In this document: positions 6,477-35,920 of the stretch, piece by piece
Layout of the letters: each line of letters opens with the position of its first letter
How positions within the stretch are numbered: the first letter of the stretch is position 1
The notes under the pieces: generated by a model
What the model was told of the DNA's origin: nothing
What the model saw: the letters and a program-made list of their open reading frames with translations, nothing else
The model's database searches: none
Origin: a virus
Lineage: Duplodnaviria > Caudoviricetes
Direction: 5' to 3' (one strand)
IMG/VR virus record: IMGVR_UViG_3300044627_001883
Span: 1-54,276 of that record
Length of the DNA: 54,276 bases
Program-made: the position numbers and the translations under genes

Positions 6477-8348
6477 TCACCAGTTGCGGACGAAGCTACG
6501 CTGAGCTCCACCTGATCTTAGCGATGGTGAGCGCCGCTTCTCTACTGGAGCTTTGAGCCGCTTTTCCAGCTGATCCCAGATGGTTCTCCGGTCTCGCAGC
6601 TGATACATGCGATTCAATCCGGCGTAGGCGTAGACCAGGGTGTCCAACGCCTCATTCCGCTCACTGGGCTTCTTGACGAACTCCCGGATGGCGAAGCCCC
6701 GCACAAAGCGGATCTGCTGTTTCTCGGAGGTGAGCTGAGCGAAATACTCCTCGTTGCAGCCGGTGTGGAAGTGGAGGTAGCCGGGGCCAGGTTCGTTGTG
6801 CTTCAGCCGCCCAAACAGCGTCACCTTCACCGTGTCAGTGCCGACGAGGAACAGCTCCACCCCATCCTTCAGCACCCGTCCACGGGCATTCACGTCCACC
6901 TTGCTGGGCTTGCCGATGACGGGCTTGTTGCGGGTGGCGGCACCTTTGATGGGGATGACGCCTTTGCTGCGCCGCTCCCGGGCGTACTGGTAGACCTCGG
7001 CGGTGAAGTGACCACCGGAGTCAATGCAGACCACATCCGCAGGCAGGGTCCCTCCACTGGCGTGCGGGAACGGCTCCAGGATGATCTCGTCAAGCTGCCG
7101 CCACAGCTCCGGACGGGACGGGTCGCCGTAGATCTCTTGGTGATCAACCAGCCAGCCCTCCTCTTCACGGCCCCAGGCCCACACGCTCACCGCCAGGCGG
7201 TTGTCCTGAACGTCCACGCCGACCGTGACAGCCAGGCCGCCATCCGGCACCACCCGCGGTTCGTAGAGCTCCACCCGCTCCATCAGCGCCGATGCGCCGA
7301 CCTTGTTGGCGTAGTTGTCCTCAAAGGTCTCACCCAGGACGGTGTTGACCCAGGTTTTGAGCATCGGGGCGTCAGCCTTGGCCTTCAGGAACTCACCCAC
7401 AATGTCCGCCCATGACTTCCAGCCCAGGGGGGAGTAGAGGGAGCTGAGGTGGAAGCCGGCAGTAAGCCCATCAGACGGAGCGGTAGCCCGCCACTCACCA
7501 GCCGCCAGCATGTCCGTCTTGTGGCGCTCGGGGATGAGCACGCCGCAGCTCTCGCAGCAGTAGGCCGCAGTCTTGGGGTCGTCGTCTTGCCAGCGGATGT
7601 TGCCGAACTGGAGCCACTGCATGTGGCCGCAGTCCGGGCAGGGGACGAAGTAGCGGCGCTGATCACTCGCCAGGTACTCCGCCTCAATCCGGCTGAAGTC
7701 CTTGATGGTTGGGGTGGAGCACAGGAACACCTTGCGCCGGCTGAAGGTGGTGGTGCGGCGTTCCGCCAGGCTCACCGGGTCACCTTCACCGTCCAGGTCC
7801 ACGGGGTAGGCGTCCACCTCATCACAGAACAGGTTCTTGATGGGCATGGAGCGGAGGCCCGCGCCAGAGTTGGCCCCGCCGATCATCAGGATTCCGCCAG
7901 GGAACTCCTTGCTGAAGAGGCTGTTGCCGCTGTCCCGCTCCCGGGGCGGCCGCACCCGTTGGCGGAGCCGGGGGCACTCCTCAATCAGCGGGTTGAGGCG
8001 CTGCTTAGAGAACCGCTTGGCAATGTCCACCGTGGGCATCACGCACAGTGACGGTCCCGGGGTGGCGTCAATGATGTAGCCCAACCAGTTGTTGCCGCAC
8101 TCCGTCTTGCCCACCTGAGCGCCGGCCATGAACACCACCCGCTGGATGGGGGAGGTGGTGCTGAGGCAATCCATGATCTCGCGCAGGAAGGGCGTGCGCT
8201 CCGTGCGCCACTTGCCTGGTTCTGCGGAGGCCCGCTGGGAGAGCATCCGATGCTCATCCGCCCATTCGCTCACGGTCAAGATGGGGTCAGGGCGTAGCCC
8301 AGCACGGAAGCTGGGGACCAGATCCCGCTCAGCGTTCGCTAGCACCAT
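6477..8348 (-). CDS. terL: Terminase large subunit, lambda GpA family
   Basis: AQVGKTE Walker A, LFCDEVD Walker B, STPT, GVDVQ nuclease motif and NEALD. Confidence 0.96.
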   Translation of the reverse strand: MVLANAERDLVPSFRAGLRPDPILTVSEWADEHRMLSQRASAEPGKWRTERTPFLREIMDCLSTTSPIQRVVFMAGAQVGKTECGNNWLGYIIDATPGPSLCVMPTVDIAKRFSKQRLNPLIEECPRLRQRVRPPRERDSGNSLFSKEFPGGILMIGGANSGAGLRSMPIKNLFCDEVDAYPVDLDGEGDPVSLAERRTTTFSRRKVFLCSTPTIKDFSRIEAEYLASDQRRYFVPCPDCGHMQWLQFGNIRWQDDDPKTAAYCCESCGVLIPERHKTDMLAAGEWRATAPSDGLTAGFHLSSLYSPLGWKSWADIVGEFLKAKADAPMLKTWVNTVLGETFEDNYANKVGASALMERVELYEPRVVPDGGLAVTVGVDVQDNRLAVSVWAWGREEEGWLVDHQEIYGDPSRPELWRQLDEIILEPFPHASGGTLPADVVCIDSGGHFTAEVYQYARERRSKGVIPIKGAATRNKPVIGKPSKVDVNARGRVLKDGVELFLVGTDTVKVTLFGRLKHNEPGPGYLHFHTGCNEEYFAQLTSEKQQIRFVRGFAIREFVKKPSERNEALDTLVYAYAGLNRMYQLRDRRTIWDQLEKRLKAPVEKRRSPSLRSGGAQRSFVRNW

Positions 8349-9006
8349 CGCTCAACTCATCCAGGACAACGGTGATCTCTTGTTGCAGCAGCAGCAGGAT
8401 GGCGTGCCGCTTCTCGGGTGAGACTTCGCCCACCAAGCCTGCCAACTGATCGGTGATGCGTGCAGGGACGTTCAGCAGGGCATCGCGGATCCGGCGGGCT
8501 TCATTGAACCACTGGACCTTCACTTCATTGGCTGAGACCAGTTCGCCGGCCCTCTCGGCGTACTCCAGCTTGGCCATCTGCGCCGCAAACGCTTCCCGAA
8601 TGGCCCGAGAGCGGGCGTAGGGCGGCACGTTGTCGGACGTGGTGGGGACGCTGGCGGCAGCCCGGCGTTCCACCGCCTCGGGCTCCTCGGGTGGCGCTTC
8701 GCGTTCTTCCGCCAGGAGCTCCCGGCTGATGGCCCGCTCCTCAGCGGAATCAAACCGCTCGGGTGGCTGCGCTTCATCTGGCTTGGGTCCCAGCTTCTTG
8801 CCGCGGCCACGGTCGTAGGGCAGCACACTTTTCTTCCACGTCCTGGCGGCCAGTTCCGGGTCCGCAATCTTGGGGTGGCCCTTGTGGTCGTAGGTGATGG
8901 CCTCCGGAGGGATGTGACCGGCCTCAATCGCCTTGCGCACCGCGGTGTGTGACACGGGCGGGTCCAGGGACTCGGCAAAGCCGCGCAGGCTGACAGGTTC
9001 ACTCAT
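8329..9006 (-). CDS. terS: Terminase small subunit
   Basis: N-terminal HTH-like SHTAVRKAI, Nu1-like C-terminus (GELVS...RDALLNVPAR), overlaps terL. Confidence 0.8.
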   Translation of the reverse strand: MSEPVSLRGFAESLDPPVSHTAVRKAIEAGHIPPEAITYDHKGHPKIADPELAARTWKKSVLPYDRGRGKKLGPKPDEAQPPERFDSAEERAISRELLAEEREAPPEEPEAVERRAAASVPTTSDNVPPYARSRAIREAFAAQMAKLEYAERAGELVSANEVKVQWFNEARRIRDALLNVPARITDQLAGLVGEVSPEKRHAILLLLQQEITVVLDELSDGASER

Positions 9007-9536
9007 GTCCGCAGCGCCGGTACGGCGTCCAGCAGTTCACGGGTCATGGCCTCGGGGGACTGGTCGGCGCGGATCATCACCGCACCCCACTCCTGCGCAA
9101 TGCGCTGCGCCTTGGTCAGGCGGCCCTTCACCCACTGTGGATTCTGAAGGCTGGTGCCGTGTTGCTGCGCCCGTGCGGCCCGGCGGTCAGCAGCCATGCG
9201 CGACGGCAAGCCCAGGTAGATCAGCCGGAGCTGGTAGCCGGCCTCTGCTGCAGCGGTGAAAAATGCGGGGTAGGACAGGCGGTCGCCCTCACCAATCACC
9301 AACGGGAATGGGCGGGAGCGGATCCAGTTCTCTGCCGTCCGGGCCACGTTCATGGGGAGCGTGTCGGTTCCGCCGAATGGCGGCCGGCGGCGGCCAAGGA
9401 TCGCGGCCTGGAGCTCCGGGAGCTCCTCGTGCGCCAGCGGCTGCTCCCGTTCAATCCGCTCACGACCCGCCAATGCGTTCTCCAACAGCGTGGTCTTGCC
9501 CGCACCCGGCGGGCCAATCAGGTACAGCAGCTCCAT
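9003..9536 (-). CDS. P-loop kinase, candidate 5-hydroxymethyl-pyrimidine DNA kinase
   Basis: GPPGAGKTT Walker A, VIGEGDRL, RRAAR lid; context beside base-modification genes. Confidence 0.7.
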   Translation of the reverse strand: MELLYLIGPPGAGKTTLLENALAGRERIEREQPLAHEELPELQAAILGRRRPPFGGTDTLPMNVARTAENWIRSRPFPLVIGEGDRLSYPAFFTAAAEAGYQLRLIYLGLPSRMAADRRAARAQQHGTSLQNPQWVKGRLTKAQRIAQEWGAVMIRADQSPEAMTRELLDAVPALRT

Positions 9537-9537
9537 C

Positions 9538-10584
9538 TCACTGAAGGTGGCGGGTCATGGCGCCGGCAGTGGGCTTGGAGCCGACGATCCAGAACAGCGT
9601 TTTGCCGTCGCCCTCCCACCACTCCGAGAACGTGTCCCGGTGCTCCGCCATGTAGGTCAGGCACTTGCCTTCGTAGGTCGGGTGGAAGTCGATCCCGTCC
9701 AAGCTGAAGGGCTTGCGGTCGGCGTACTTGACGTAGCCGGTGGAGTGGAGGTCGTAGTGCTCCAGCTCGTAGGGCGCATCCCGGCGGTGCGCCGGCTCCA
9801 GATCCGGGTGCTGGTGGTAGCGGGGGCGGAATAGCCCCATCACATCCACCCCGGTGGCCTGGTGGATGCTTTCCATGCGGTCTTCAATCCACCGGAGCCG
9901 GGTGGGACCGATGCCGAGCAGCGTCACCTTGCGGAGCGCCTTGGGCCGGTGCTGCGCGATGCCGAAGAGGACGGACGTGCAGGAGTTGCACGAGCCGGCC
10001 GGCATGATCAGGTGCTCAATGTCATCCGGGATGTTGGCGGCCTGGGGGGCGCCGACCGCATGGAAGCCCGCCACGTCACGGGCGGTGGCCGCCTCCGGCG
10101 TGGTGATGCCGTAGTGGAGGCGGAAATAGTCCTTGAGCTGGGGCTCCTGCGCCAGCTTGCCCACGGACCGCTGGAGGGTGGGGTTGAAGCCCACCGGCAC
10201 GTAGCTGAAGGTGGCCCCAGCGCGGGCGGCGATGGCGACGTTCTCGTGCTTGATGGACGTTTCGGGCTTGCTGCCGCCCAGCACCATCAGCGCCGGAAGC
10301 TCATAGTGCGCCGCCACCAACGCAGCCATGCTGATCTGTGGGCTGAGCACGGATGCGCCAGTGATCAAGCCGGCCCGGCCACCGGATTGGCGGTAGTTCT
10401 GGACCAGGTAGATGAGCTGGCGGAGCTTAGAGCCGTTGATGCCGCCATAGCCCAGCGGGGCAAAGAAGTCCTCACGCTTGTATGCCCGGCCGTTCACGCG
10501 GGTGATGGGCGTGAGCGTGCCCAGGTACTGCTCCCATTGGACCTGAGAGCGGGAGAGGGACTGAACGGGGAAGACGGTACGCAT
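9538..10584 (-). CDS. PLP-dependent enzyme (ACC deaminase/D-Cys desulfhydrase-like fold), candidate decarboxylase of amino-acylated DNA bases
   Basis: KREDF...INGSKLRQ (Schiff-base Lys), PAGSCNS and HPTYEGK motifs. Confidence 0.75.
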   Translation of the reverse strand: MRTVFPVQSLSRSQVQWEQYLGTLTPITRVNGRAYKREDFFAPLGYGGINGSKLRQLIYLVQNYRQSGGRAGLITGASVLSPQISMAALVAAHYELPALMVLGGSKPETSIKHENVAIAARAGATFSYVPVGFNPTLQRSVGKLAQEPQLKDYFRLHYGITTPEAATARDVAGFHAVGAPQAANIPDDIEHLIMPAGSCNSCTSVLFGIAQHRPKALRKVTLLGIGPTRLRWIEDRMESIHQATGVDVMGLFRPRYHQHPDLEPAHRRDAPYELEHYDLHSTGYVKYADRKPFSLDGIDFHPTYEGKCLTYMAEHRDTFSEWWEGDGKTLFWIVGSKPTAGAMTRHLQ

Positions 10585-10586
10585 GA

Positions 10587-11669
10587 CTACCTCCAGCGGG
10601 GGAACAGCTGGTCACGCACCGCATCGTTGAAGTCGTTGCGGAACTCGGGGTAGTCGCGGTCCATCATGATGACTTGGCCGGTCAGCCGGTAGTGGTTTTG
10701 CTTGATTGGGACGCAGCCCGGGTCGTGCGGGTTGTCCTCCAGCCGCAGGTAGTCCGGGAGGTAGCGGCGCCGCGCCTCCCAGAACACGCTCAGATCCTCA
10801 CCAGGCCAGCGGGCCTGCGTGGCACGGATCCGGTCATGGAACATGTCGTTGTAGACGTTGGGGTAGCGCCGGTTCACGCGGTGCCAGGACTTGTAGGTGC
10901 AGAGCGCCGACTCCATCGTGAAGTAGCTCACGTCATGGGCGTAGTCGGTGCCGGCGGCCAGCTCTCGCGCCTCCGCCAGGATCGCGGCACCCTCCTCCTC
11001 CAGCCAGTTCAACGTCTGCTTGGGGTAGGTCCCGTCAAAGTCTGGGTTGCTGGAGTGCCAATCCAGGTCATCTCGACCCAGCACCTTGCACAGCCCGTTG
11101 CGGTGTGACTTGGAGCCGGAGCGGTCATCCAGGAACAGCGTGTCGCAATCGAACGGGGCGCCGGTAATGCGCAGGTACTCGCTGAAGCTGAACGCTGACA
11201 GCCGGCCAAAAGACGGGATGGCGGTCGCCACCGCCCAGATGCCCCCGAAGCCGCGTTGCGCAGCCTCGCCCCACAGCTCCAGCTGAGTGCGGCCGCGCAG
11301 CAGCTTGCGGTAGCCCTCCACTGCCTGCGGCAGCATCTTCTTGTGATGCCGGCGGTCCGTATCAAACGCCAGCTGTGCGTAGTTGGCCCGATACCACTCC
11401 AGCATCGGTTCCGCCGCATCCACTGACGGGAACCTCCGGTGAAGGATCCAGCTGGTTAGCGGGTGCTGGGTATTGCCGTTGAGGAAGGCAAACCACAGGG
11501 CCTCTTCGGCGGTCCAACCCTGCTGCTCTGCCAGGAAGGGGAGCACGTAGTAGACGGCACCAGGATGCGCCCGGTACTTCAGGTGGAACTGGTAGAAGCG
11601 ATGGAACACCGTCCGGCGGAGCTCCGGCACCCGGAAATCCATCCCAGGCCGCAGGTCCGTCAATCCCAT
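10587..11669 (-). CDS. Amino acid:DNA transferase (aGPT-Pplase2 family, glycosylase-like helical fold)
   Basis: FDTDRR, FGRLSAFSFSEYL and MESALCTYKSWH...RYPNVY motifs; ATG at 11669. Confidence 0.75.
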   Translation of the reverse strand: MGLTDLRPGMDFRVPELRRTVFHRFYQFHLKYRAHPGAVYYVLPFLAEQQGWTAEEALWFAFLNGNTQHPLTSWILHRRFPSVDAAEPMLEWYRANYAQLAFDTDRRHHKKMLPQAVEGYRKLLRGRTQLELWGEAAQRGFGGIWAVATAIPSFGRLSAFSFSEYLRITGAPFDCDTLFLDDRSGSKSHRNGLCKVLGRDDLDWHSSNPDFDGTYPKQTLNWLEEEGAAILAEARELAAGTDYAHDVSYFTMESALCTYKSWHRVNRRYPNVYNDMFHDRIRATQARWPGEDLSVFWEARRRYLPDYLRLEDNPHDPGCVPIKQNHYRLTGQVIMMDRDYPEFRNDFNDAVRDQLFPRWR

Positions 11670-12565
11670 AGAGGATCGCCAGGCTTGCGGTTCTTGGCGC
11701 GGTCCAGCTCCTGCTGCGCGGTGCCGCAATGGATCATCTTCTCGCGGTAGTAGAAGACCTGCGTGAGCCGGCGGAACCGCTTGGGGTTGCCCACCATGGC
11801 GGTGTTGCCGTGCCACTGGTGCACGTCAAACAGCAGCACGTCACAGGACGTGGGCGCCACGCCTACCCGGTACTTCGGCATGACCAGGTGGCCACCTTGG
11901 AACGTGCCGGAGGTGAGGCAGGCCATCACGCCAAAGCCATCGCGGAAGTCACCCGCATCCTTGTGCGTCGCGGTCCGCCAGGACTCATTCACCGTGATGG
12001 TGGTGAAGGCGGTGTCTTTGATCACGAAGTCCTGGCTGGTGCGGTCCGCAATGTCCCGCTGCCTGGCGTACTGCTCCGGCAGATGCTCAGCGAACACCCG
12101 GTCCACGTGCCGGATGTAGGGCTGAAGGTTGTGCCACTGCTCCGGGTTGTCCCGGGTGTAGTTGCACAGCCGGCAGAACGGCATCCGGGTGTACCGGTCG
12201 AAGTAGCCGATGATGGCGCTGCGCACCGGATTGGCCGACACGCGGGTGTTGCTCCGGGTGCCCTTCTGCGTGGGGCGGTAGACCGCCAGGTTGCCCTGCT
12301 CGTCATAGCCACCGGCAATGCCGCGGTTGCGGCTGCCTTGGTCGCCGTAGTCGATGGTCTCCGTCAGGATCTGATACGCCGCAGCACCCAGCTCTGCCGG
12401 GATGGCGTTGCGGACGTAGACCAGCAGCGGGGAGCCGTCAGGCTTGTTCACCCGGGTGGTCTCACCCTCCACCAGCAGGTCGTAGTGCTCTGGGGTGAGG
12501 AAGTGACCAGCCAGGTGGTCCACCTCCTCGTCAGGGAGCTCAACAGGAGCGGTCAGGATCCTCAC
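11660..12565 (-). CDS. TET/JBP-family 2OG-Fe(II) dioxygenase
   Basis: FTTITVN...TATHKDAGD (HxD), LLFDVHQWHGN (distal His), RLTQVFYYREKM (2OG-binding Arg). Confidence 0.85.
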   Translation of the reverse strand: MRILTAPVELPDEEVDHLAGHFLTPEHYDLLVEGETTRVNKPDGSPLLVYVRNAIPAELGAAAYQILTETIDYGDQGSRNRGIAGGYDEQGNLAVYRPTQKGTRSNTRVSANPVRSAIIGYFDRYTRMPFCRLCNYTRDNPEQWHNLQPYIRHVDRVFAEHLPEQYARQRDIADRTSQDFVIKDTAFTTITVNESWRTATHKDAGDFRDGFGVMACLTSGTFQGGHLVMPKYRVGVAPTSCDVLLFDVHQWHGNTAMVGNPKRFRRLTQVFYYREKMIHCGTAQQELDRAKNRKPGDPLWD

Positions 12566-13317
12566 AGGCCCTCCAGCACATCCTTCAGCGCCGCAAACAC
12601 GCAGTCAGTCTGGTTGCTGGTGCCGTAGTGCTTGTTGAGCCGGTCAATCATGCGGCCCCATTCCGTGTGCTGGTCCAGGCTCATGAACAGCTGCACCACG
12701 CGGGTCGCGGCTGGCGGGAGGCTGAATGCCTCCTCATCCTCATCCTCATCCCCTTCATCCACCACTCCAGCAGGGAAGGAACTGGGTGCGGGACTGTCAG
12801 GGAGGGGCGAGGCGCCAGCCGCGGCCAGCGGGGTGCCCGGGGTGCCCGGGGTAGGGGCGTTGAAGGTGGGCGTCGGGACGTTGGTGGCTACGTCATCCAG
12901 CAGGCCGCCCAGCTCAGCGTCCGAGAAGCCGGTCAGCTCCAGGTCAAAGTCAAAGTCGCGCAGGTCCGCCAACTCACCGGACAGCAAGCTCATGTCCCAG
13001 CCGGCCAGCTCCGCCAGCTTGTTGTCCGCAATGACGTAGGCACGCTTCTGCGCTGCGGAGAGGTGGTCAAGAACCACCACCGGCACCTCCGTCAGGCCCA
13101 GCTCCTTGGCCGCGGCCAAACGGCCATGCCCGGCAATCACCCCAGCGTCACCGTCCACCAAGACGGGGTTGACGAAGCCGAACTCCACGATGGAAGCCGC
13201 CAGCTGCGACACCTGCGCCCGGCTGTGGGTGCGGGGGTTCTTGTCGTAGGCAACGAGCTTGCTCACCGGCCACAGCTCAATGCGCTTTGCCATGGCGGGA
13301 GTGAGGGTGGATCTCAT
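12562..13317 (-). CDS. ParB/Srx N-terminal domain protein, with no fused methyltransferase
   Basis: NPRTHS, FGFVNPVLVD, IAGHGRLAAA and ADNKLAE motifs; start at 13317 or 13293. Confidence 0.85.
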   Translation of the reverse strand: MRSTLTPAMAKRIELWPVSKLVAYDKNPRTHSRAQVSQLAASIVEFGFVNPVLVDGDAGVIAGHGRLAAAKELGLTEVPVVVLDHLSAAQKRAYVIADNKLAELAGWDMSLLSGELADLRDFDFDLELTGFSDAELGGLLDDVATNVPTPTFNAPTPGTPGTPLAAAGASPLPDSPAPSSFPAGVVDEGDEDEDEEAFSLPPAATRVVQLFMSLDQHTEWGRMIDRLNKHYGTSNQTDCVFAALKDVLEGL

Positions 13318-13429
13318 CCGGAATAGTCCAGTGGAAACCGTGTGTTGGAAACTATAGGGGCGCCTTTGTGCCGGTTTCCATCTGATAGGCGGGGAATAGC
13401 GGGAACCTACCTGAAGGCCGAGACGCTGG

Positions 13430-13610
13430 CTGAAGCGGGGGCCTGCGAAACACCCACGGCCTCTAGGCCCCACAGGGACCCGCAGGCGGCCCTAGGGGGA
13501 CTAGGGGGGGGGAGGGGGAGCCCCTAGAGGCTCTAGGGCTACCCCTGGGGCGCCAGGGCGGCGCAGCGCAGGGCCTGGGGGCAGCGGTCCAGGGGTTGAC
13601 CTAGCGGCCG
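13430..13610 (-). other. Putative cos/packaging region
   Basis: Non-coding and upstream of the packaging operon; minus-strand GGGTCCC (13475-13481) resembles lambda cosQ GGGTCCT; CTAG cluster and a palindrome. Confidence 0.4.
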
Positions 13611-13644
13611 GGCTCCAGGGGGCGTCCTGGGGCTGGGAGCGGCC

Positions 13645-14355
13645 TCAGCGGAAGCCTGCGCGTTGGAGCTCAGCGGTGAAGGCGGAGCGGAGTGCGCCTG
13701 GCCAGGCGGTGCTGAAGGCACGGTCCAGCAGCTGCTCTAGGGGCAGGCGGCGCTGGCGGGTGACGGGTGTGGGGTCGATGGTGAAGACACGCCTGGTGTT
13801 GGACTCCAGGGTGGAGGTGCGGCCGATGAAGCCGGTGGTGCGCTGGAAGACGGCCATGGTGGTGGAGCCACGCTTCACAGGGGCGACGAAGTAGCCGGCC
13901 TGCTTGGTGCGGGCACCGCCAATGATCTTGGCGTAGTTGGACAGGGTGACGTTGCCGTACTGGTTGATGGGCGCGACGCCCTTGGTCGGGACCAGGACAG
14001 CGGAGGAGGGGACGCCAGCCAGTGCCGCAGCGGAGCGGTCCACGGGCTTCACGACGGGCCTGGTGCCTTGGATGAGCGGCTGGAGGTAGCGACCAGCAGC
14101 GTTGCTGGCATCAGAGCGCAGGCCCACCTCAGCGGTGAGGTCACCAGCCCGAGCGAACTTGGCGTAGGCGGAGTTGATGGTCCAGCGGGTTGGGCGGTCG
14201 ATGTAGCTGGGCAGGTCCTGCTTGAGCTGCTCCCGGCTGGCGATGACGGCTTGGGTCATGGCCTTGGCGACGGCGTAGCGCAGCTGGGTGTCCGTGAGCA
14301 GGCGGAGGCTGTCGCCCAGCTTGTCGATGTCGGAGGTGACGGAGCGGCTGGCCAT
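13645..14355 (-). CDS. Neck / minor tail protein (lambda gpZ-like)
   Basis: YAVAKAMTQ...IDRPTRWT motif; ATG at 14355. Confidence 0.55.
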   Translation of the reverse strand: MASRSVTSDIDKLGDSLRLLTDTQLRYAVAKAMTQAVIASREQLKQDLPSYIDRPTRWTINSAYAKFARAGDLTAEVGLRSDASNAAGRYLQPLIQGTRPVVKPVDRSAAALAGVPSSAVLVPTKGVAPINQYGNVTLSNYAKIIGGARTKQAGYFVAPVKRGSTTMAVFQRTTGFIGRTSTLESNTRRVFTIDPTPVTRQRRLPLEQLLDRAFSTAWPGALRSAFTAELQRAGFR

Positions 14356-14604: not shown

Positions 14605-14992
14605 CACGTCCTATCACGTCCCAAGGCTTGGGACGCCCCACACCCCAGGCCAGCACTGGCTTCCCTCTATCCGTCCTATCGTCCTATCTCTTCTGAAGAA
14701 TCTATTGATAAATAGGGAAGGGGGTCAGGGGTAAGAAATCCCCCCTATTAGCGGGGCACCTCAGGGAGGACGAGGTTAGGACGGATCCTCCAAACCCTTT
14801 CCAGCGCAATGGATTCCGCCGTCCTGACCCTTGGGACGGACAGAGCGCGAAATTCGGGGGCGATCTGCGAAATAGATAGGACGTTGGGACGTTGGGACGG
14901 GGAAGGGGCCAAAAACGACCAGCCCTGGGACGGACCGGAGCACTACGGCCTGATCTCCAAAACAGATAGGACGTTGGGACGTTGGGACGGCA
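14605..14992. repeat. Iteron-like repeats, putative replication origin
   Basis: AGATAGGACGTTGGGACGTTGGGACGG at 14874-14900 and 14964-14990; inverted copies including the palindrome CGTCCCAA-GGC-TTGGGACG at 14617-14635; AT-rich patch around 14690-14740. Confidence 0.7.
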
Positions 14993-22695: not shown

Positions 22696-22970
22696 ATCTC
22701 GTCATCCTCACCAACGACCGTGTGGCACCTGTGGTGCCCACCTCCGAGCACAAGTCCACCTACGCCCCACGCGGTGTCCGGACGCCCATGTGGCAGTTCC
22801 AGCCTGGTGATCGCGTCTACGTCCGGGACTGGATTGGCTCCGGCCTGATCATGGAGCGGGTGTCAGGCTTGGCCTGGCCCCACTACCTGATCATGAACGG
22901 CGAGGGGCACCTCTACCGTGTCTCGCAGATCATGCTGGCCTCCCGTCCGCTGTGGGATGGCCCCGCATGA
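22692..22970 (+). CDS. Hypothetical protein (SH3-like FQPGDRVYV)
   Basis: ATGA-coupled to both neighbours. Confidence 0.6.
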   Translation: MNLVILTNDRVAPVVPTSEHKSTYAPRGVRTPMWQFQPGDRVYVRDWIGSGLIMERVSGLAWPHYLIMNGEGHLYRVSQIMLASRPLWDGPA

Positions 22971-23650
22971 GCACGCTCCTCGTCAACCTCCCGCCCATCA
23001 AAGTCTGGGTGCGCAAGGAGTACCTCTACGACCTCCGCCGCGGCCACGGGGAATACACCCCTGGCTACTGGGTGGCGGCCAAGTCCCTCCCAGGCCGTGC
23101 GCTCTACTTTGAGACCTACCTCACCCAGTACGGGGCGCTCTACGACAAGCTGCCCATCAGTGCCTTCCTGGCCTGGGACAGTGACCACCCGGACGGCCCG
23201 GTGCCACCCAGTCCGGACCTGCCGCTGTCTGACCTCCAGTTCTGGAACAGCTTCGACACCGGCATCACCGCCATCCACAAATCACTCATCGCCAACATGG
23301 CGTTTGAGGTCCGGACCCGCTCCCATGGCGTGATGCCTGGCAGCTACCTGTTCACGCTCGACAACTACCACCCCCACGTCAACGAGATCGACGTGGAGTT
23401 CGCTGAGGTCCCGGATGAGCACAAGTCCCACAACGTGGTGGTGCTGGCCAACGGGCAGATCGGTGCCTACCCCAACAACCGCTGCCGGATGGTGGATAGC
23501 TCACTCACGCCTGAGGAGCTCCTGACGCCTGACTTCAAGGTCAGCACCCGCTACTTCAACGTGGAGCACGCTCCCAAGTGGGGACGGCTGGGGGGTGAGG
23601 ACGAATACTTCTGGACCACGCCGACGGAGCGGCAGGAGGTGGCGCAATGA
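22967..23650 (+). CDS. Conserved cyanophage-type hypothetical protein
   Basis: NLP..VWVRKEYL.D...GHGE, YDKLPISAF and PNNR motifs recalled from T4-like cyanophage proteins. Confidence 0.7.
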   Translation: MSTLLVNLPPIKVWVRKEYLYDLRRGHGEYTPGYWVAAKSLPGRALYFETYLTQYGALYDKLPISAFLAWDSDHPDGPVPPSPDLPLSDLQFWNSFDTGITAIHKSLIANMAFEVRTRSHGVMPGSYLFTLDNYHPHVNEIDVEFAEVPDEHKSHNVVVLANGQIGAYPNNRCRMVDSSLTPEELLTPDFKVSTRYFNVEHAPKWGRLGGEDEYFWTTPTERQEVAQ

Positions 23651-31312: not shown

Positions 31313-31600
31313 ATGAAGTCATTCCAACTGGATCAGCAACGCGCTGACATGCTGGAGTCCCTCTACCAACACTCCGGCAGGGACCAGCTGCCCGAGGGCC
31401 ACCCACTCCGCTGCACCTATACCGGGTTGTGGGAGGAGTTCTGCCGCGACATGGCGGCCAACTTCCGCGACACCGACTACGCCGAGCTGCTGGCGGATGT
31501 GATGAGCGGAATGGATGAGACGCAATCAGTCATGAGCGAGCCCCAGGCCAAAGCCGCCATCGCCGTCTGCCGCAAGCACCTGCTGGGACGCTGGGCATGA
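31313..31600 (+). CDS. Hypothetical protein
   Basis: LY..SGR...TYTGLW motif; coupled to thyX. Confidence 0.6.
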   Translation: MKSFQLDQQRADMLESLYQHSGRDQLPEGHPLRCTYTGLWEEFCRDMAANFRDTDYAELLADVMSGMDETQSVMSEPQAKAAIAVCRKHLLGRWA

Positions 31601-32223
31601 GCGTCACGCTGATCCACGCCACACCGGACGCCGAGCGGTTGATCGTCAAGATGGCCCGGGTGTCCAACCCAGCCAACCAGGACAACCAGGAGACTGCTCC
31701 CAGGCTGCTCCGCTACCTCATCCGCCACCAACACTGGTCGCCGTTTGAGATGGCGTCCATGTGCGTGGAAATCTCCACCGAGCGCGACATTACCGCTCAG
31801 ATCCTCCGCCACCGTAGCTTCAGCTTCCAGGAGTTCAGCACCCGCTATGCCCGGAGCTCCCGGGCACAGGTGCCTTCATTCCGCCGTCAGGACGAGGCCA
31901 ACCGCCAGGCCAGTCACGATGACCTGCCGCTGGAGGTTCAGTCCATGGCGCGTGACGCTGCGGACCGGGTGATTGGCTCTGCCTATGAGCTGTACTACGA
32001 CCTGCTCCAGCAAGGCGTTGCCCGGGAGACTGCCCGCCGCATCCTGCCGCTCTGCACGCCCACCACCATCTACATGCACGGCACCCTGCGCTCCTGGATT
32101 CACTACATCAATGTGCGGACGGACCCGGGCACCCAACTGGAGCACCGGCAGGTGGCTCAAGCGTGCCGTGAAATCTTCACCGAGCAGTTCCCCTTCATCG
32201 CTGAAGCCGCCTTCAATGACTGA
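31597..32223 (+). CDS. thyX: Flavin-dependent thymidylate synthase
   Basis: HWSPFE and the ThyX signature RHRSFSFQEFSTRY. Confidence 0.95.
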   Translation: MSVTLIHATPDAERLIVKMARVSNPANQDNQETAPRLLRYLIRHQHWSPFEMASMCVEISTERDITAQILRHRSFSFQEFSTRYARSSRAQVPSFRRQDEANRQASHDDLPLEVQSMARDAADRVIGSAYELYYDLLQQGVARETARRILPLCTPTTIYMHGTLRSWIHYINVRTDPGTQLEHRQVAQACREIFTEQFPFIAEAAFND

Positions 32224-34213: not shown

Positions 34214-35920
34214 ATGCAGAACACCTCCCCACTCACCAAATCAACCATCGCCAATGCCAGGCCCAGCTCCAAGAAATACTGGATGCGGGACGGCAAGGTG
34301 CCGGGCCTCGGCGTGCTGGTCCTGCCCTCCGGAGTGAAGACCTGGTATCTGCGCTACGACACCGCTGCTGGCCGGGAGCGGCAGCACAAGATCGGCCGCG
34401 CTGACACCCTCTCGCCGGAGGTGGCCCGGGAACAGGCGCACAAGCTGCTGGGTGCCGCGGCCAAGGGGGAGGACCCCACCACCGCACGGCAGCAGCTGCG
34501 GGCCAGCCCCACCCTTCGTGAGTTCCAGGCGCTTCTGGAGCGCCGGCACTACTACACGATGGCCAAGGGCACCCAAGCCAACTACGAGGTCATCTGGCGC
34601 CTGCATGTGCTGCCCTTCATGGGCGGGATGCGGGTGGCGGAGGTGACGCCCGCGCACATTGCCGACCTGCTGGCCCACAAGCGGCAGACCGGTGGGACGG
34701 AGTTCAACGTCACCAAAATCCGCATGATGCTCAGCGCCGCCTTCAACCTGGCGGAGACATGGGGGCTGCGGCCGCAACACGCCAATCCATGCCGGCTGGT
34801 GAAGGTCCGCCAGGACAAGGCACGCCGCAGGTACTTAAAGCCCGCTGAAACCGTCCGCCTAGGCCAAGCCCTAGACCAGTGGGCGAACACGCCTCAGCGG
34901 TGGCTTTTCGCGTGCCTCGTGCGCCTTCTGCTTTTCACTGGCGCCCGGCTGCGCGAGATCATGGAGTGCCGCTGGGAATGGGTGGACCTGGATGCTGGGC
35001 TCATCTCCATCCCCCCAGAGCACCACAAGACCGGTGGCCGCACGGGTGACGACCGGCTGATCCACCTGCCGCCTGAGGCCGTGGACATACTGGGCCAGCT
35101 CCGCCGCTTCTCTGACAGCGCCTGGATCATCCCGGGGCAGGATCCGTCCAAGCCGTTCAATGGCTACCGCCGACTCTGGCTTCAGGTGCTGGAGGTCGCG
35201 CAGATCAAGAACCTGCGCGTCCATGACCTGCGCCACAGCTTCGCCTCCTACGCCATCAGCTACGGCGGACTCAACCTGCCGGCCGTGGGGCAGCTGCTGG
35301 GGCACACCAGCGCCGCCACCACCAACCGCTACGCACACCTGATCACGGAGGCCGCAGCAGCTCACGCCGCCAAGACCACCAAGCTGATCACCTCAGCCCT
35401 TGCTGGCGGTGACAGCCTGATCCCCGTTGTACCGGCCCGTGACCGCATAGCTCCGCTCCACCACGCCGGAGATCAGGTGGAAGACCATCTGGCCAATCTT
35501 CATCCCCGGCCACAGGCGGACGGGGTGGAAGCGCCTGGCATTCTGGAGCTCCAGGGTGAGCCGGCTGCCGTTCCACCCTGGGTCGCAGTACCCGGCCAAG
35601 AGGTGCTCCAACCCCTCCCGCGCACGGGAGCTCTTGAGGACGAACTGCCCCGCGACGTGCGGCGGCAGGCTGAAGGTCTCCAAGGTCTCAGCCAGGACGA
35701 ACTGCCCGGGCATCAGCAGGAACGGATCCTCAGCCGTGCGGTCGGCAATGGAGTGGATCTGGAGACACTCGTGCTCCTCTTGCTCCACCAGCAGACGCTC
35801 CCCCAAGGTCAGGTCCAGGGAGGCGGGGTTCAGGAGCTCCTCGCGGAACGGCTTCACCAGGCCGTGCTGAAGGCACAGGCGGCGGATCTCGTGGTCAGGA
35901 AGGATCATGCCTTGAGTTGA
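34214..35920 (+). CDS. int: Tyrosine integrase (core about 393 aa plus a C-terminal read-through extension)
   Basis: N-terminal arm-binding domain; TGARLRE, HKTG, HDLRH, LGH and TNRYAH. Confidence 0.92.
   Translation: MQNTSPLTKSTIANARPSSKKYWMRDGKVPGLGVLVLPSGVKTWYLRYDTAAGRERQHKIGRADTLSPEVAREQAHKLLGAAAKGEDPTTARQQLRASPTLREFQALLERRHYYTMAKGTQANYEVIWRLHVLPFMGGMRVAEVTPAHIADLLAHKRQTGGTEFNVTKIRMMLSAAFNLAETWGLRPQHANPCRLVKVRQDKARRRYLKPAETVRLGQALDQWANTPQRWLFACLVRLLLFTGARLREIMECRWEWVDLDAGLISIPPEHHKTGGRTGDDRLIHLPPEAVDILGQLRRFSDSAWIIPGQDPSKPFNGYRRLWLQVLEVAQIKNLRVHDLRHSFASYAISYGGLNLPAVGQLLGHTSAATTNRYAHLITEAAAAHAAKTTKLITSALAGGDSLIPVVPARDRIAPLHHAGDQVEDHLANLHPRPQADGVEAPGILELQGEPAAVPPWVAVPGQEVLQPLPRTGALEDELPRDVRRQAEGLQGLSQDELPGHQQERILSRAVGNGVDLETLVLLLLHQQTLPQGQVQGGGVQELLAERLHQAVLKAQAADLVVRKDHALS
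35393..35908 (-). CDS. dcd: dCTP deaminase
   Basis: LNPASLDL, KSSRAREG, AGYCDPGW.G.LTLE and IGQMVF. Confidence 0.92.
   Translation of the reverse strand: MILPDHEIRRLCLQHGLVKPFREELLNPASLDLTLGERLLVEQEEHECLQIHSIADRTAEDPFLLMPGQFVLAETLETFSLPPHVAGQFVLKSSRAREGLEHLLAGYCDPGWNGSRLTLELQNARRFHPVRLWPGMKIGQMVFHLISGVVERSYAVTGRYNGDQAVTASKG

What the first reader, a model, noticed from the sequence alone, without database searches (positions are those of the whole stretch)
9003..12565. Thymidine hypermodification pathway apparently started by a TET/JBP oxygenase on DNA
Seen: four tightly coupled genes encoding a TET/JBP dioxygenase (HKD...H...R), an aGPT-Pplase2-type amino acid:DNA transferase, a PLP enzyme and a P-loop kinase. 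Established: in phages ViI and M6, 5hmdU is made before replication by a dUMP hydroxymethylase, then phosphorylated, amino-acylated and decarboxylated. Characterised phage TET homologues act on 5mC alongside a methyltransferase and glycosyltransferases. Here I recognise no ThyA-like hydroxymethylase, DNA polymerase, C5 methyltransferase, glycosyltransferase or radical SAM gene. Inference: T in finished DNA goes to 5hmU (oxygenase), phospho-hmU (kinase), an amino acid adduct (transferase) and a decarboxylated amine base (PLP enzyme), possibly ViI-like 5-(2-aminoethoxy)methyl-U. This would let a temperate phage that uses host polymerase hypermodify only its lytic DNA. Similar gene links have been predicted computationally, but I know of no biochemical demonstration of this combination.
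Basis: partly seen in the sequence, partly recalled or inferred. Interest (0 to 1): 0.92.

Follow-up and report, generated by a model that had tools for sequence, protein, structure and literature searches.

The report
Phage thymine hypermodification operon, oxygenase-started
A probably temperate phage carries a five-gene operon that most likely turns ordinary thymine in finished DNA into a bulky amine-bearing base just before packaging, a kind of pathway that has already been described in print.

Summary
On the minus strand, 9003-12565 encodes a TET/JBP dioxygenase, an amino acid:DNA transferase (AADT), a PLP enzyme and a P-loop kinase, tightly coupled. The operon also runs straight into the terminase genes. 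The window is a whole 54-kb virus record with an integrase. Six-frame scans found no ThyA, C5-methylase, PolA/PolB, radical SAM or GT2.

Lee et al. (NAR 2021) described contigs where TET_JBP replaces the dUMP hydroxymethylase. O'Toole et al. (PNAS 2026) showed ParB-dependent phage thymine dioxygenases linked to kinases and AADTs.

Added here:
- The PLP enzyme is 39% identical over its full length to ViI gp226, the O-serinyl-T decarboxylase.
- The AADT lies apart from the glycine and putrescine transferases.
- Among 79 loci with this PLP enzyme, TET (10) and ThyA-like (42) never co-occur.
- The kinase is Ploopntkinase3, not a characterised 5-hmdU kinase family.

The end product is unproven; ViI-like 5-(2-aminoethoxy)methyl-dU is a guess. 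Verdict: a new member of a known kind, of moderate interest.

The parts
12562..13317 (-). ParB-like protein, 251 aa, the likely activator of the dioxygenase. It has an N-terminal ParB/CTPase-type domain (NPR, GHGR), an acidic proline-rich linker and a conserved C-terminal domain. No HTH was recognised.
   Evidence: PF02195 at E 5.7e-7 and phrog_620 at 2e-54. Noc/ParB chains match in PDB sequences. In the 37-sequence alignment, G63 and D238 are invariant and N27, R29 and R66 nearly so, and the window shares the C-terminal VRMVQLF..TDNLTD block. The start at 13317 matches L107. It overlaps the next gene by 4 nt.
11660..12565 (-). TET/JBP-family (5mYOX) Fe(II)/2OG dioxygenase, 301 aa. Predicted to convert thymine in DNA to 5-hydroxymethyluracil.
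   Evidence: PF12851 at 1.1e-22. H201, D203, H252, R266 and C280 are invariant. The profile aligns HxD/H/R with hTET2. AF2 pLDDT 94.1; Foldseek top hits are NgTET1 and TET2 at E about 1e-13.
10587..11669 (-). Amino acid:DNA transferase (AADT, formerly aGPT-Pplase2), 360 aa.
   Evidence: PF18724 at 2.9e-17. 28% identity to ViI gp247 at E 4e-28; no significant match to M6 gp51. Tree.
9538..10584 (-). PLP-dependent enzyme of the ViI gp226 type, predicted to decarboxylate the DNA-bound amino acid, 348 aa.
   Evidence: 39% identity over 98% of its length to ViI gp226, E 8e-83. K53 lies in GINGSKLRQ, which is the same in gp226. phrog_3650 at 2e-97.
9003..9536 (-). P-loop kinase, 177 aa, Ploopntkinase3 family. 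Predicted 5hmU-DNA kinase.
   Evidence: PF18751 at 2.1e-30. It is not in PF18748 or PF18747, the families of M6 gp54 and ViI gp243.
8329..9006 (-). Terminase small subunit. It overlaps the kinase gene by 4 nt.
   Evidence: phrog_57 at 1.2e-17; junction.
6477..8348 (-). Terminase large subunit (gpA type), last gene of the tightly coupled run.
   Evidence: PF05876 at 3e-98 and PF20454 at 2e-96; 20-nt overlap with TerS.
13318..13644 (-). 327-nt gap upstream of the ParB gene, with one sigma-70-like site at 13380-13351. Possible operon start.
   Evidence: The single site is no more than shuffles give (1 found, 1.4 expected).
31597..32223 (+). ThyX flavin-dependent thymidylate synthase. It would supply dTMP, the substrate base of the pathway.
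   Evidence: PF02511 at 1.4e-48; phrog_85 at 2.7e-72.
34214..35920 (+). Tyrosine integrase with an arm-binding domain. This is the basis for calling the phage temperate.
   Evidence: PF00589 at 7.6e-18 and PF13356 at 1.8e-17.

Best explanation
This is a post-replicative thymidine hypermodification operon of a probably temperate, lambda-like siphovirus. It is transcribed together with the terminase genes.

Inferred steps:
1. The TET/JBP-family dioxygenase, helped by the ParB-like protein encoded just upstream, oxidises thymine in duplex phage DNA to 5-hydroxymethyluracil.
2. The Ploopntkinase3 kinase phosphorylates the hydroxymethyl group.
3. The AADT displaces the phosphate with a free amino acid. 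The link must leave the alpha-amine free; serine through its oxygen is the best guess.
4. The ViI gp226-type PLP enzyme removes the carboxylate and leaves a primary amine on the base. The most likely product is 5-(2-aminoethoxy)methyl-dU or a close analogue.

The phage has no DNA polymerase and no dUMP hydroxymethylase, so DNA is made with plain T (ThyX may boost dTTP). It is modified only when the late operon is on. A prophage copy would therefore stay unmodified.

Shown here: gene identities, order, coupling, conservation and the listed absences. Shown elsewhere, for homologues only: T oxidation and ParB dependence; the decarboxylase activity of gp226; the serine transferase activity of gp247. 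Inferred: every activity of these particular proteins, the amino acid used, the kinase's substrate and the timing.
For: Gene identities and catalytic residues.

Coupling: the junctions from ParB through TerL are -4, -10, +2, +1, -4 and -20 nt.

Source of 5hmU: the complete record (CheckV 100%) has no ThyA, C5-MTase, PolA, PolB, radical SAM or GT2 in six-frame scans. The AADT control scan rings once.

ParB link:
- A ParB-like ORF lies just upstream of the oxygenase in 74 of 80 viral loci that hold relatives of it.
- The oxygenase has 21 residues beyond the invariant C280. The PNAS 2026 paper reports such a C-terminal extension only in ParB-dependent enzymes.
- Complex prediction on oxygenase plus ParB gave weak support: score 0.52, best of 3 controls 0.00. 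That mark was reached by 58 of 80 solved complexes and 2 of 110 mismatched pairs, but at 0.60 or under by only 7 of those 80 and by both mismatches that passed. The runs agree in at least 43% of contacts and the partner's pLDDT is at least 70.

Oxygenase in place of hydroxymethylase: among 79 viral loci with a gp226-type PLP gene, 10 have TET and no ThyA-like gene, 42 have a ThyA-like gene and no TET, 27 have neither, and none has both. None of the 79 has a radical SAM isomerase match.

Same cassette elsewhere: L033 and L107 carry ParB-TET-AADT-PLP-kinase, with terminase genes following (TerS-TerL in L033; a TerL match in L107). Between the window and L107, dN/dS of the five genes is 0.13-0.21, against 0.09-0.12 for the terminase genes.

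AADT: it lies outside the glycine/putrescine clade (SH-aLRT 99). It sits in a 66-row clade (97) in which 63 rows have the PLP gene in the same locus.

Literature:
- PMC13229309 (sections 3, 5, 6, 11, 12, 13 read).
- PMC8989533 (passages only).
Against: - No activity was measured for any of these five proteins.
- The kinase is not in the Pfam families that hold the characterised 5-hmdU DNA kinases. The helical partner family PF18723 is absent. The phosphorylation step therefore rests on gene context.
- ViI gp247 (serine) is not the nearest AADT branch. It sits on a long branch (1.88) in the sister group, and identity is only 28%. Serine is a guess.
- The PLP Pfam score (25 bits) is under the curated cut-off of 35.
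- The tblastn tallies used few queries, many loci are short contigs cut at their ends, and near-duplicate loci were not removed.
- 'Temperate' rests on the integrase alone.
- The complex prediction is only a weak pass, and O'Toole et al. could not trap a ParB:oxygenase complex.
Confidence: 0.75

Rival explanations
1. The pathway is as described, but the amino acid is not serine. The final base would then be a different decarboxylated amine, for example from threonine, homoserine, cysteine or a side-chain-linked diamino acid.
For: The window's AADT is only 28% identical to ViI gp247. It falls in a separate, well-supported 66-row clade, while gp247 sits on a long branch elsewhere. No member of the window's clade has been characterised in the papers I read.
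Against: The partner PLP enzyme is a full-length, 39%-identical homologue of the O-serinyl-T decarboxylase. No radical SAM isomerase is present, so an O-linked, free-amine substrate as in ViI is the simplest fit.
Confidence: 0.3
2. The oxygenase acts on 5-methylcytosine made by a host methylase, and the downstream enzymes decorate 5hmC rather than 5hmU.
For: The characterised ParB-dependent enzyme 5mYOX176 also oxidises 5mC iteratively in vitro (abstract of PMC13229309). The nearest solved structures are 5mC dioxygenases.
Against: No C5-methyltransferase is found in the complete record. Kinase, AADT and PLP partners are known only from hmU pathways. O'Toole et al. assign the ParB-associated clade to thymine oxidation and show 5hmU formation in vivo. 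Melnitz-type phage TETs that sit next to a C5-methylase are only 27.7% identical.
Confidence: 0.04
3. 5hmU is supplied before replication by the ThyX homologue acting as a dUMP hydroxymethylase, and the oxygenase has another role.
For: A ThyX gene is present. A ThyX match also lies about 5 kb from the oxygenase in one related locus, L087.
Against: From my own knowledge, all known dUMP and dCMP hydroxymethylases are ThyA homologues, and none is known in the ThyX family. The phage has no polymerase of its own. No dNTP-pool enzymes of the kind annotated beside the M6 and PaMx11 clusters turned up among the window proteins I scanned with Pfam. TET and ThyA-like genes are mutually exclusive next to this PLP gene, which fits TET as the hmU source.
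Confidence: 0.03
4. The modification is sparse and sequence-specific, and serves as a mark for packaging, transcription or self-recognition. It would not be a bulk shield against restriction.
For: O'Toole et al. report sequence preferences (NTR for 5mYOX176 with ParB) and partial modification, and they raise an epigenetic-like role. The operon is fused to the terminase genes here, in L033 and L107, and in cluster B3 mycobacteriophages.
Against: Nothing here measures the extent of modification. In ViI and M6, related modifications replace up to half of T and block restriction (and the abstract listing of PMC6449724). This rival differs from the best explanation in purpose, not in chemistry.
Confidence: 0.2

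Closest known systems
ParB-dependent phage T-dioxygenase pathways (5mYOX Clade C1; O'Toole et al., PNAS 2026, PMC13229309; preprint 10.1101/2025.08.14.668559)
   Same: A ParB-like gene sits directly upstream of a TET/JBP oxygenase that has a C-terminal extension. There is no C5-methylase. The pair is linked to a P-loop kinase and an AADT, with terminase nearby. The AF2 confidence of the oxygenase (94.1, pTM 0.91) is like that reported for 5mYOX176.
   Different: The main text of that paper never mentions a PLP enzyme or decarboxylase (0 occurrences), and it demonstrates only the oxidation step. In my tallies the gp226-type PLP gene accompanies the oxygenase in 1 of 80 oxygenase-centred loci and in 10 of 79 PLP-centred loci. 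I could not compare sequences with the enzymes they tested.
Salmonella phage ViI 5-NeOmdU pathway (Lee et al. 2018; NAR 2021, PMC8989533)
   Same: An AADT of the same Pfam family (28% identity to gp247). A PLP enzyme 39% identical to the decarboxylase gp226, with the stretch holding its proposed PLP lysine the same in both. No radical SAM isomerase.
   Different: According to Lee et al., the dUMP hydroxymethylase that makes 5hmdU in the ThyA-type pathways works before replication, and ViI encodes its own DNA polymerase. ViI uses kinases of other families (PF18747 for gp243), and its genes are scattered over a 157-kb lytic myovirus genome. Here the hmU source is an oxygenase acting on finished DNA, the kinase is Ploopntkinase3, and all genes sit in one late operon of a 54-kb integrase-bearing siphovirus.
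Pseudomonas phages M6 and PaMx11 (glycine route)
   Same: The same logic of kinase, then AADT, then tailoring enzyme acting on DNA-borne hmU.
   Different: Their AADTs (glycine) form a separate clade and show no significant BLAST match. The M6 PLP enzyme does not match. They need a radical SAM isomerase or an FAD lyase, a ThyA-like gene (annotated thymidylate synthase in both records) and a phage polymerase.
Cluster B3 mycobacteriophages (BobbyK, Bane2, Heath and others) and Rhodococcus phage Tonitrus
   Same: The cassette sits at the packaging end of the genome. BobbyK has ParB-like gp1, a weak Tet_JBP gp2, AADT gp3 (48% identical to the window's), Ploopntkinase3 gp4 and then TerL. Tonitrus is described with the same first genes (passages).
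   Different: No PLP gene is annotated or detected in the stretch of BobbyK I examined, so the end product would keep its carboxylate or differ otherwise. These are cultured phages and could be tested directly.
Trypanosome JBP1/2 and base J
   Same: Thymine in DNA is oxidised to hmU by a TET/JBP enzyme, and the hydroxyl group is then decorated.
   Different: In base J, hmU is glucosylated. There is no kinase, AADT or PLP step and no ParB partner. The sequence relation is distant (the SSN description).

Membership tests
TET/JBP (5mYOX) DNA base dioxygenases | Double-stranded beta-helix fold with an HxD...H iron triad and a 2-oxoglutarate-binding Arg | tested here: met
   PF12851 at 80 bits against a cut-off of 34.9. 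H201, D203, H252 and R266 are invariant in 36 sequences and align to the hTET2 motifs. The best structural matches of the AF2 model are NgTET1, TET2, CcTet and CMD1.
ParB-dependent T-dioxygenase subclass (Clade C1, PMC13229309) | A cognate ParB-like gene in the same neighbourhood | tested here: met
   The ParB_N protein gene ends 4 nt inside the oxygenase gene. The same arrangement is seen in 74 of 80 related viral loci.
ParB-dependent T-dioxygenase subclass (Clade C1, PMC13229309) | A C-terminal extension after the last Cys conserved across subclasses | tested here: met
   C280 is invariant and is followed by 21 residues, with a helix at 283-292. The feature is as described.
ParB-dependent T-dioxygenase subclass (Clade C1, PMC13229309) | No neighbouring C5-cytosine methyltransferase | tested here: met
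   PF00145 gave 0 matches at E<=1 in the whole record.
ParB-dependent T-dioxygenase subclass (Clade C1, PMC13229309) | Groups with the tested enzymes (5mYOX176, 177, 185) in a tree or similarity network | not testable with these tools
   Their sequences are given only in supplementary datasets, which are closed. The main text holds no accession numbers.
ParB-dependent T-dioxygenase subclass (Clade C1, PMC13229309) | Oxidises T to 5hmU in duplex DNA only when ParB is present | not testable with these tools
   This needs expression and nucleoside analysis. The only computational hint is a weak pass of the complex prediction.
5mYOX-associated ParB | An N-terminal ParB nucleotide-binding domain and a C-terminal domain, with no recognisable DNA-binding HTH between them | tested here: met
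   Only ParB_N is found by Pfam. The PDB sequence matches are confined to the N-terminal domain of Noc/ParB. The C-terminal block is conserved and the linker is acidic. The absence of an HTH is judged from profile searches only, not from a fold.
Amino acid:DNA transferase (AADT, aGPT-Pplase2) | A match to PF18724, the family of M6 gp51, ViI gp247, PaMx11 gp46 and phiW-14 gp109 | tested here: met
   63.6 bits against a cut-off of 26.2. All four characterised enzymes hit the same model.
Amino acid:DNA transferase (AADT, aGPT-Pplase2) | Serine specificity, as in ViI gp247 | tested here: inconclusive
   It lies in the same major clade as gp247 and outside the glycine/putrescine clade. However, gp247 is on a long branch in the sister group.
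ViI gp226-type PLP decarboxylase | Full-length homology, with the lysine proposed to carry PLP conserved | tested here: met
   39% identity over residues 2-343, E 8e-83. K53 lies in GINGSKLRQ, which is the same in gp226. K92 is named as the proposed lysine.
Characterised 5-hmdU DNA kinases (M6 gp54, ViI gp243) | Membership of PF18748 (HMUDK_HMUD1) or PF18747 (HMUD2) | tested here: not met
   The characterised kinases hit these models. The window has no match to either at E<=1. Its kinase is in PF18751 instead, and BLAST to M6 gp54 matches only the P-loop.
Pre-replicative hmU pathways (ViI, M6, SP10 type) | A ThyA-like dUMP hydroxymethylase and a phage DNA polymerase | tested here: not met
   PF00303, PF00476 and PF00136 each gave 0 matches.

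The most novel reading that the evidence does not exclude
The five genes form a self-contained route that needs no phage polymerase. It would convert ordinary thymine in any finished duplex DNA into a ViI-like aminoethoxymethyl-uracil. It runs from the packaging operon of a temperate phage, so only DNA about to enter capsids is modified and the prophage stays plain. It would use a kinase family (Ploopntkinase3) distinct from every characterised 5-hmdU DNA kinase, and it does without the helical partner protein that accompanies the ThyA-type pathways. No paper my searches found reports this complete route as reconstituted.
Probability: 0.45. Interest if true: 0.55.

Novelty: new member of a known kind. 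Interest (0 to 1): 0.35.

Why it matters
If the cassette works as read, five small genes would be enough to install a positively charged hypermodified base on any T-containing DNA after synthesis. That would be useful for enzymatic DNA modification and for studying how phages evade restriction and CRISPR. It would also show how a temperate phage that depends on the host replisome can still protect its virion DNA. The concept is already in print, so the value here is a complete, compact and well-annotated example. It also yields three testable details: the ViI-type decarboxylase, the different kinase family, and the fusion to the terminase operon.

Tried and rejected
- **Near-identical phage DNA.** A megablast of window 1-25000 against 50,697 phage records gave no match. 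A blastn of the operon gave only short matches of 7-11% coverage, mostly to mycobacteriophages.
- **Host.** There are no tRNAs. Of the 120 TerL relatives listed, only one carries an organism name, a Cyanobium MAG at 67% identity. That is too thin to name a host. The 20 bacterial MAG loci with oxygenase relatives span many phyla, and none has the PLP gene.
- **Repressor.** Pfam scans of 20 small or unassigned proteins gave no CI-like repressor.
- **Promoter.** One sigma-70-like site lies upstream of the ParB gene, which is no more than chance gives.
- **NCBIfam.** It gave nothing useful for the oxygenase or the AADT.
- **Iyer et al. 2013.** I recall this as the original computational prediction but could not find or open it. 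I cite it from memory only.
- **PMC9599517 (pelagiphages).** It deals with the ThyA-type route and does not bear on this finding.
- **Other uses of the ParB gene.** I considered a partition or nuclease role. I rejected it because of the 4-nt coupling to the oxygenase, the 74 of 80 conserved adjacency and the published activator role.
- **A decayed cluster.** Rejected: all frames are open and dN/dS against L107 is 0.13-0.21.
- **Supplements.** They were closed and I did not request them. Dataset S10 and SI Figs S3 and S14 of PMC13229309, and Figure 2 of PMC8989533, may already show this very contig or this exact gene combination.

Full report
**The thing itself.** The window is a whole IMG/VR virus record of 54,276 bases, rated 100% complete. 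The contig break lies inside the tail module, so the gene set is probably complete. It has a lambda-like structural and packaging module, a Prim-Pol/VapE primase, a RecE-like nuclease, an AAA_24 ATPase, an SSB, a ThyX, a tyrosine integrase and a lysozyme/M15 endolysin.

On the minus strand, seven genes run without a real gap:
- ParB-like, 12562-13317
- TET/JBP oxygenase, 11660-12565
- AADT, 10587-11669
- PLP enzyme, 9538-10584
- P-loop kinase, 9003-9536
- TerS, 8329-9006
- TerL, 6477-8348

The junctions between them are -4, -10, +2, +1, -4 and -20 nt. A 327-nt gap precedes the ParB gene.

**Check of the observation.**
- The oxygenase hits Tet_JBP at E 1.1e-22.
  - Among 36 homologues, H201, D203, H252, R266 and C280 are invariant.
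  - The profile aligns these residues to the iron and 2OG motifs of human TET2.
  - An AF2 model (pLDDT 94.1, pTM 0.91) finds NgTET1, TET2, CcTet and CMD1 first in the PDB, at E about 1e-13.
- The AADT hits PF18724. This is the same model hit by all four characterised transferases.
- The PLP protein scores below Pfam's cut-off for PALP (25 bits against 35). It is nevertheless 39% identical over its full length to ViI gp226 (E 8e-83), and the lysine-bearing stretch GINGSKLRQ is the same in both.
- The kinase hits Ploopntkinase3 at 2.1e-30.

ThyA, C5-methylase, PolA, PolB, radical SAM and GT2 all gave nothing, while the AADT model rang once as a positive control. N6/N4 methylases are also absent.

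- The gene just upstream is ParB-like (PF02195 at 5.7e-7; phrog_620 at 2e-54). It has an N-terminal ParB nucleotide-binding-type domain (NPR, GHGR), an acidic proline-rich linker and a conserved C-terminal block, and no recognisable HTH.
- The operon continues into the terminase genes.
- A ThyX gene (PF02511 at 1.4e-48) lies at 31597-32223.

**What is known.** Lee et al. (NAR 2021, PMC8989533; passages read) established the following steps on DNA-borne 5hmU:
- a kinase, then an AADT;
- serine for ViI gp247, glycine for M6 gp51 and PaMx11 gp46, putrescine for phiW-14 gp109;
- a PLP decarboxylase (ViI gp226, M6 gp52), which needs a free alpha-amine.

M6 therefore needs a radical SAM isomerase first, and ViI does not. 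[quoted passage not shown] It infers that thymine is converted to hmU in DNA.

O'Toole et al. (PNAS 2026, PMC13229309; sections 3, 5, 6, 11, 12 and 13 read) then showed that phage T-dioxygenases exist. They found that one subclass needs a neighbouring ParB-like protein for activity on duplex DNA. [quoted passage not shown] Their main text does not mention a PLP enzyme and demonstrates only the oxidation step.

In my literature searches I found no report of a full reconstitution from oxygenase to final base. Supplements were closed and may hold more.

**Fit to that framework.**
- The window's oxygenase has an invariant C280 followed by 21 residues.
- A ParB-like ORF sits directly upstream in 74 of 80 viral loci that hold its relatives at 37-44% identity. 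Several of the six exceptions are cut by contig ends.
- In the same 80 loci, tblastn with a handful of queries found an AADT in 43, a kinase in 13, an FkbM-type methyltransferase in 12, a radical SAM in 1, the PLP gene in 1 and a ThyA-like gene in none.
- A complex prediction for oxygenase plus ParB gave weak support: score 0.52, best of 3 controls 0.00. That mark was reached by 58 of 80 solved complexes and 2 of 110 mismatched pairs, but at 0.60 or under by only 7 of those 80 and by both mismatches that passed. The runs agree in at least 43% of contacts and the partner's pLDDT is at least 70. I treat this as a small nudge only. O'Toole et al. could not trap a complex.

**The downstream half.**
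- The PLP enzyme and the AADT resemble those of ViI, not those of M6.
- Scanning viral contigs for the PLP gene gave 79 loci. Of these, 42 carry a ThyA-like gene and no oxygenase, 10 carry the oxygenase and no ThyA-like gene, 27 show neither within the fetched flank (among them the ViI-like genomes, where the genes are dispersed), and none has both. None of the 79 has a match to the M6 radical SAM isomerase. This is the clearest quantitative support that the oxygenase stands in for the hydroxymethylase.
- Two loci repeat the window's cassette.
  - L033 has ParB, oxygenase, AADT, PLP, kinase, TerS and TerL in that order.
  - L107 comes from a 52,994-base contig. Its products are 83-95% identical by tblastn, and a TerL match follows its cassette.
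- Between the window and L107, dN/dS is 0.19, 0.13, 0.16, 0.13 and 0.21 for the five genes, against 0.12 and 0.09 for TerS and TerL. All five genes are under purifying selection.

**Which amino acid?** I built a quick maximum-likelihood tree of 96 AADT rows (LG+G4, SH-aLRT only).
- The rows were 89 from loci that passed my length filters, the window, and six references including M6 gp55 as outgroup.
- I left out hits under 220 aligned residues, and ORFs under 250 aa, over 480 aa, or with stops.
- The glycine and putrescine enzymes fall in a separate clade (support 99).
- The window sits in a 66-row clade (support 97). In that clade 63 rows have the PLP gene in the same locus.
- ViI gp247 sits on a long branch (1.88) in the sister group.

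So the enzyme is not of the glycine type, and its clade travels with the decarboxylase. Serine is inferred from the partner enzyme and from the lack of an isomerase, not from the AADT itself.

**A difference from the characterised systems.** The kinase is not in the families of the tested 5-hmdU DNA kinases.
- M6 gp54 is in PF18748, ViI gp243 is in PF18747, and M6 gp55 is in PF18723, the 'helical domain' family.
- The window has no match to any of the three at E<=1.
- Across 178 loci:
  - 109 have the oxygenase: 19 show a window/BobbyK-type kinase, none shows an M6- or ViI-type kinase, none shows the helical protein, and 90 show no kinase match at my sensitivity.
  - 42 are ThyA-type loci: 39 show the M6-type kinase and 40 show the helical protein.

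Relatedness among the loci inflates these counts, but the split is clean. The phosphorylation step here therefore rests on gene context and on the published pathway logic.

**Mechanism proposed and confidence.**
- Late in infection, the operon is transcribed with the terminase genes.
- ParB and the oxygenase convert T in replicated duplex DNA to 5hmU.
- The kinase phosphorylates it.
- The AADT installs an amino acid, probably O-linked serine.
- The PLP enzyme decarboxylates it to an amine-bearing base, probably 5-(2-aminoethoxy)methyl-dU.
- The phage has no polymerase and no hydroxymethylase, so it must replicate with plain T, and ThyX may raise the dTTP supply.

I put about 0.75 on the pathway as a whole and about 0.4 on the exact product.

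If the enzyme shared the NTR preference of 5mYOX176, about half of the 19,464 T residues on both strands (TG 41.6%, TA 8.0%) would be candidates. That is arithmetic, not evidence.

**Verdict.** The reading was good but is already in the literature, as a prediction in 2021 and with its first step demonstrated in 2025-2026. This is a new member of a known kind. It has three details worth a bench test:
- a ViI-type decarboxylase joined to an oxygenase start;
- a different kinase family;
- fusion to the packaging operon in an integrase-bearing phage.

Noticed in passing
window 14607-14989: There is a dense cluster of short repeats between the end of the primase gene and the genes upstream of the ParB operon. 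All 5 of the window's GATAGGACG sites lie here (0.15 expected by chance), as do 7 of its 8 TWGGGACG sites. They occur in both orientations, include two 53-nt copies 90 nt apart, and include palindromes. The cluster looks like iterons of a replication origin, or regulator or terminase binding sites. Two terminator-like hairpins follow the primase gene at 15028-15006 and 14938-14919.
   Followed up: partly
window 31597-32223 (+): A ThyX flavin-dependent thymidylate synthase in a phage that appears to modify thymine after replication. A ThyX match also lies near the oxygenase in one related MAG locus (L087).
   Followed up: partly
loci L007-L184: The kinase family tracks the source of hmU. Oxygenase loci have only the Ploopntkinase3-type kinase (19 of 109; 0 of M6 or ViI type; 0 with the PF18723 helical protein). 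ThyA-type loci have the M6 gp54-type kinase (39 of 42) and the helical protein (40 of 42).
   Followed up: partly
L002 (Mycobacterium phage BobbyK 1-5203) and 26 other mycobacteriophage records: These mycobacteriophages (cluster B3, as I recall the classification) start their genomes with a ParB-like gp1, a gp2 with a weak Tet_JBP match (E 5.5e-6, below cut-off), AADT gp3 (48% identical to the window's), Ploopntkinase3 gp4 (annotated adenylate kinase) and then TerL. In BobbyK, gp2 and gp3 are annotated as hypothetical. These are cultured phages in which oxygenase-started thymine modification could be measured.
   Followed up: partly
L003 (Pelagibacter phage HTVC112P gp17-gp19) and 12 of 80 viral loci: A different three-gene set: ParB-like, oxygenase (42.5% identical to the window's) and an FkbM-family methyltransferase. 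This suggests methylation of the hmU hydroxyl rather than an amino acid adduct. In GenBank the oxygenase is annotated 'DnaJ chaperone / SNF2 DNA repair protein'.
   Followed up: no
public annotations: There are systematic misnaming problems. PHROG 800, M6 gp54 and PaMx11 gp49 label 5hmU-DNA kinases as 'terminase small subunit'. PHROG 6059 labels a TET-like family as 'queuine tRNA-ribosyltransferase'. Several phage TET homologues are called 'SNF2 DNA repair protein'.
   Followed up: no
window 22952-23650 (+): A 232-aa protein with no Pfam match but a strong match to phrog_3704 (E 8.6e-95), which is annotated 'ferredoxin' and classed as an auxiliary metabolic gene. Its function is unclear. O'Toole et al. 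mention an iron-sulfur maturation protein in 7% of oxygenase contigs.
   Followed up: no
window 13645-14355 (-): A gene matching phrog_1924 'minor tail protein' (E 1e-27) sits alone between the primase and the modification operon, far from the tail module.
   Followed up: no
window 6477-8348 (TerL): Among the 120 listed TerL relatives (64-100% identity), the only one with an organism name is from a Cyanobium MAG (67%). With the window's 64% G+C, this is a faint hint of a picocyanobacterial host.
   Followed up: no
L110, L112, L114, L117, L118, L131: Low-G+C viral loci (30-41%) carry oxygenase, PLP and AADT in a different order, and 2 of the 6 also have a kinase match. My tblastn queries detected no ParB-like gene in any of them. 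They are possibly ParB-independent versions of the same pathway.
   Followed up: no
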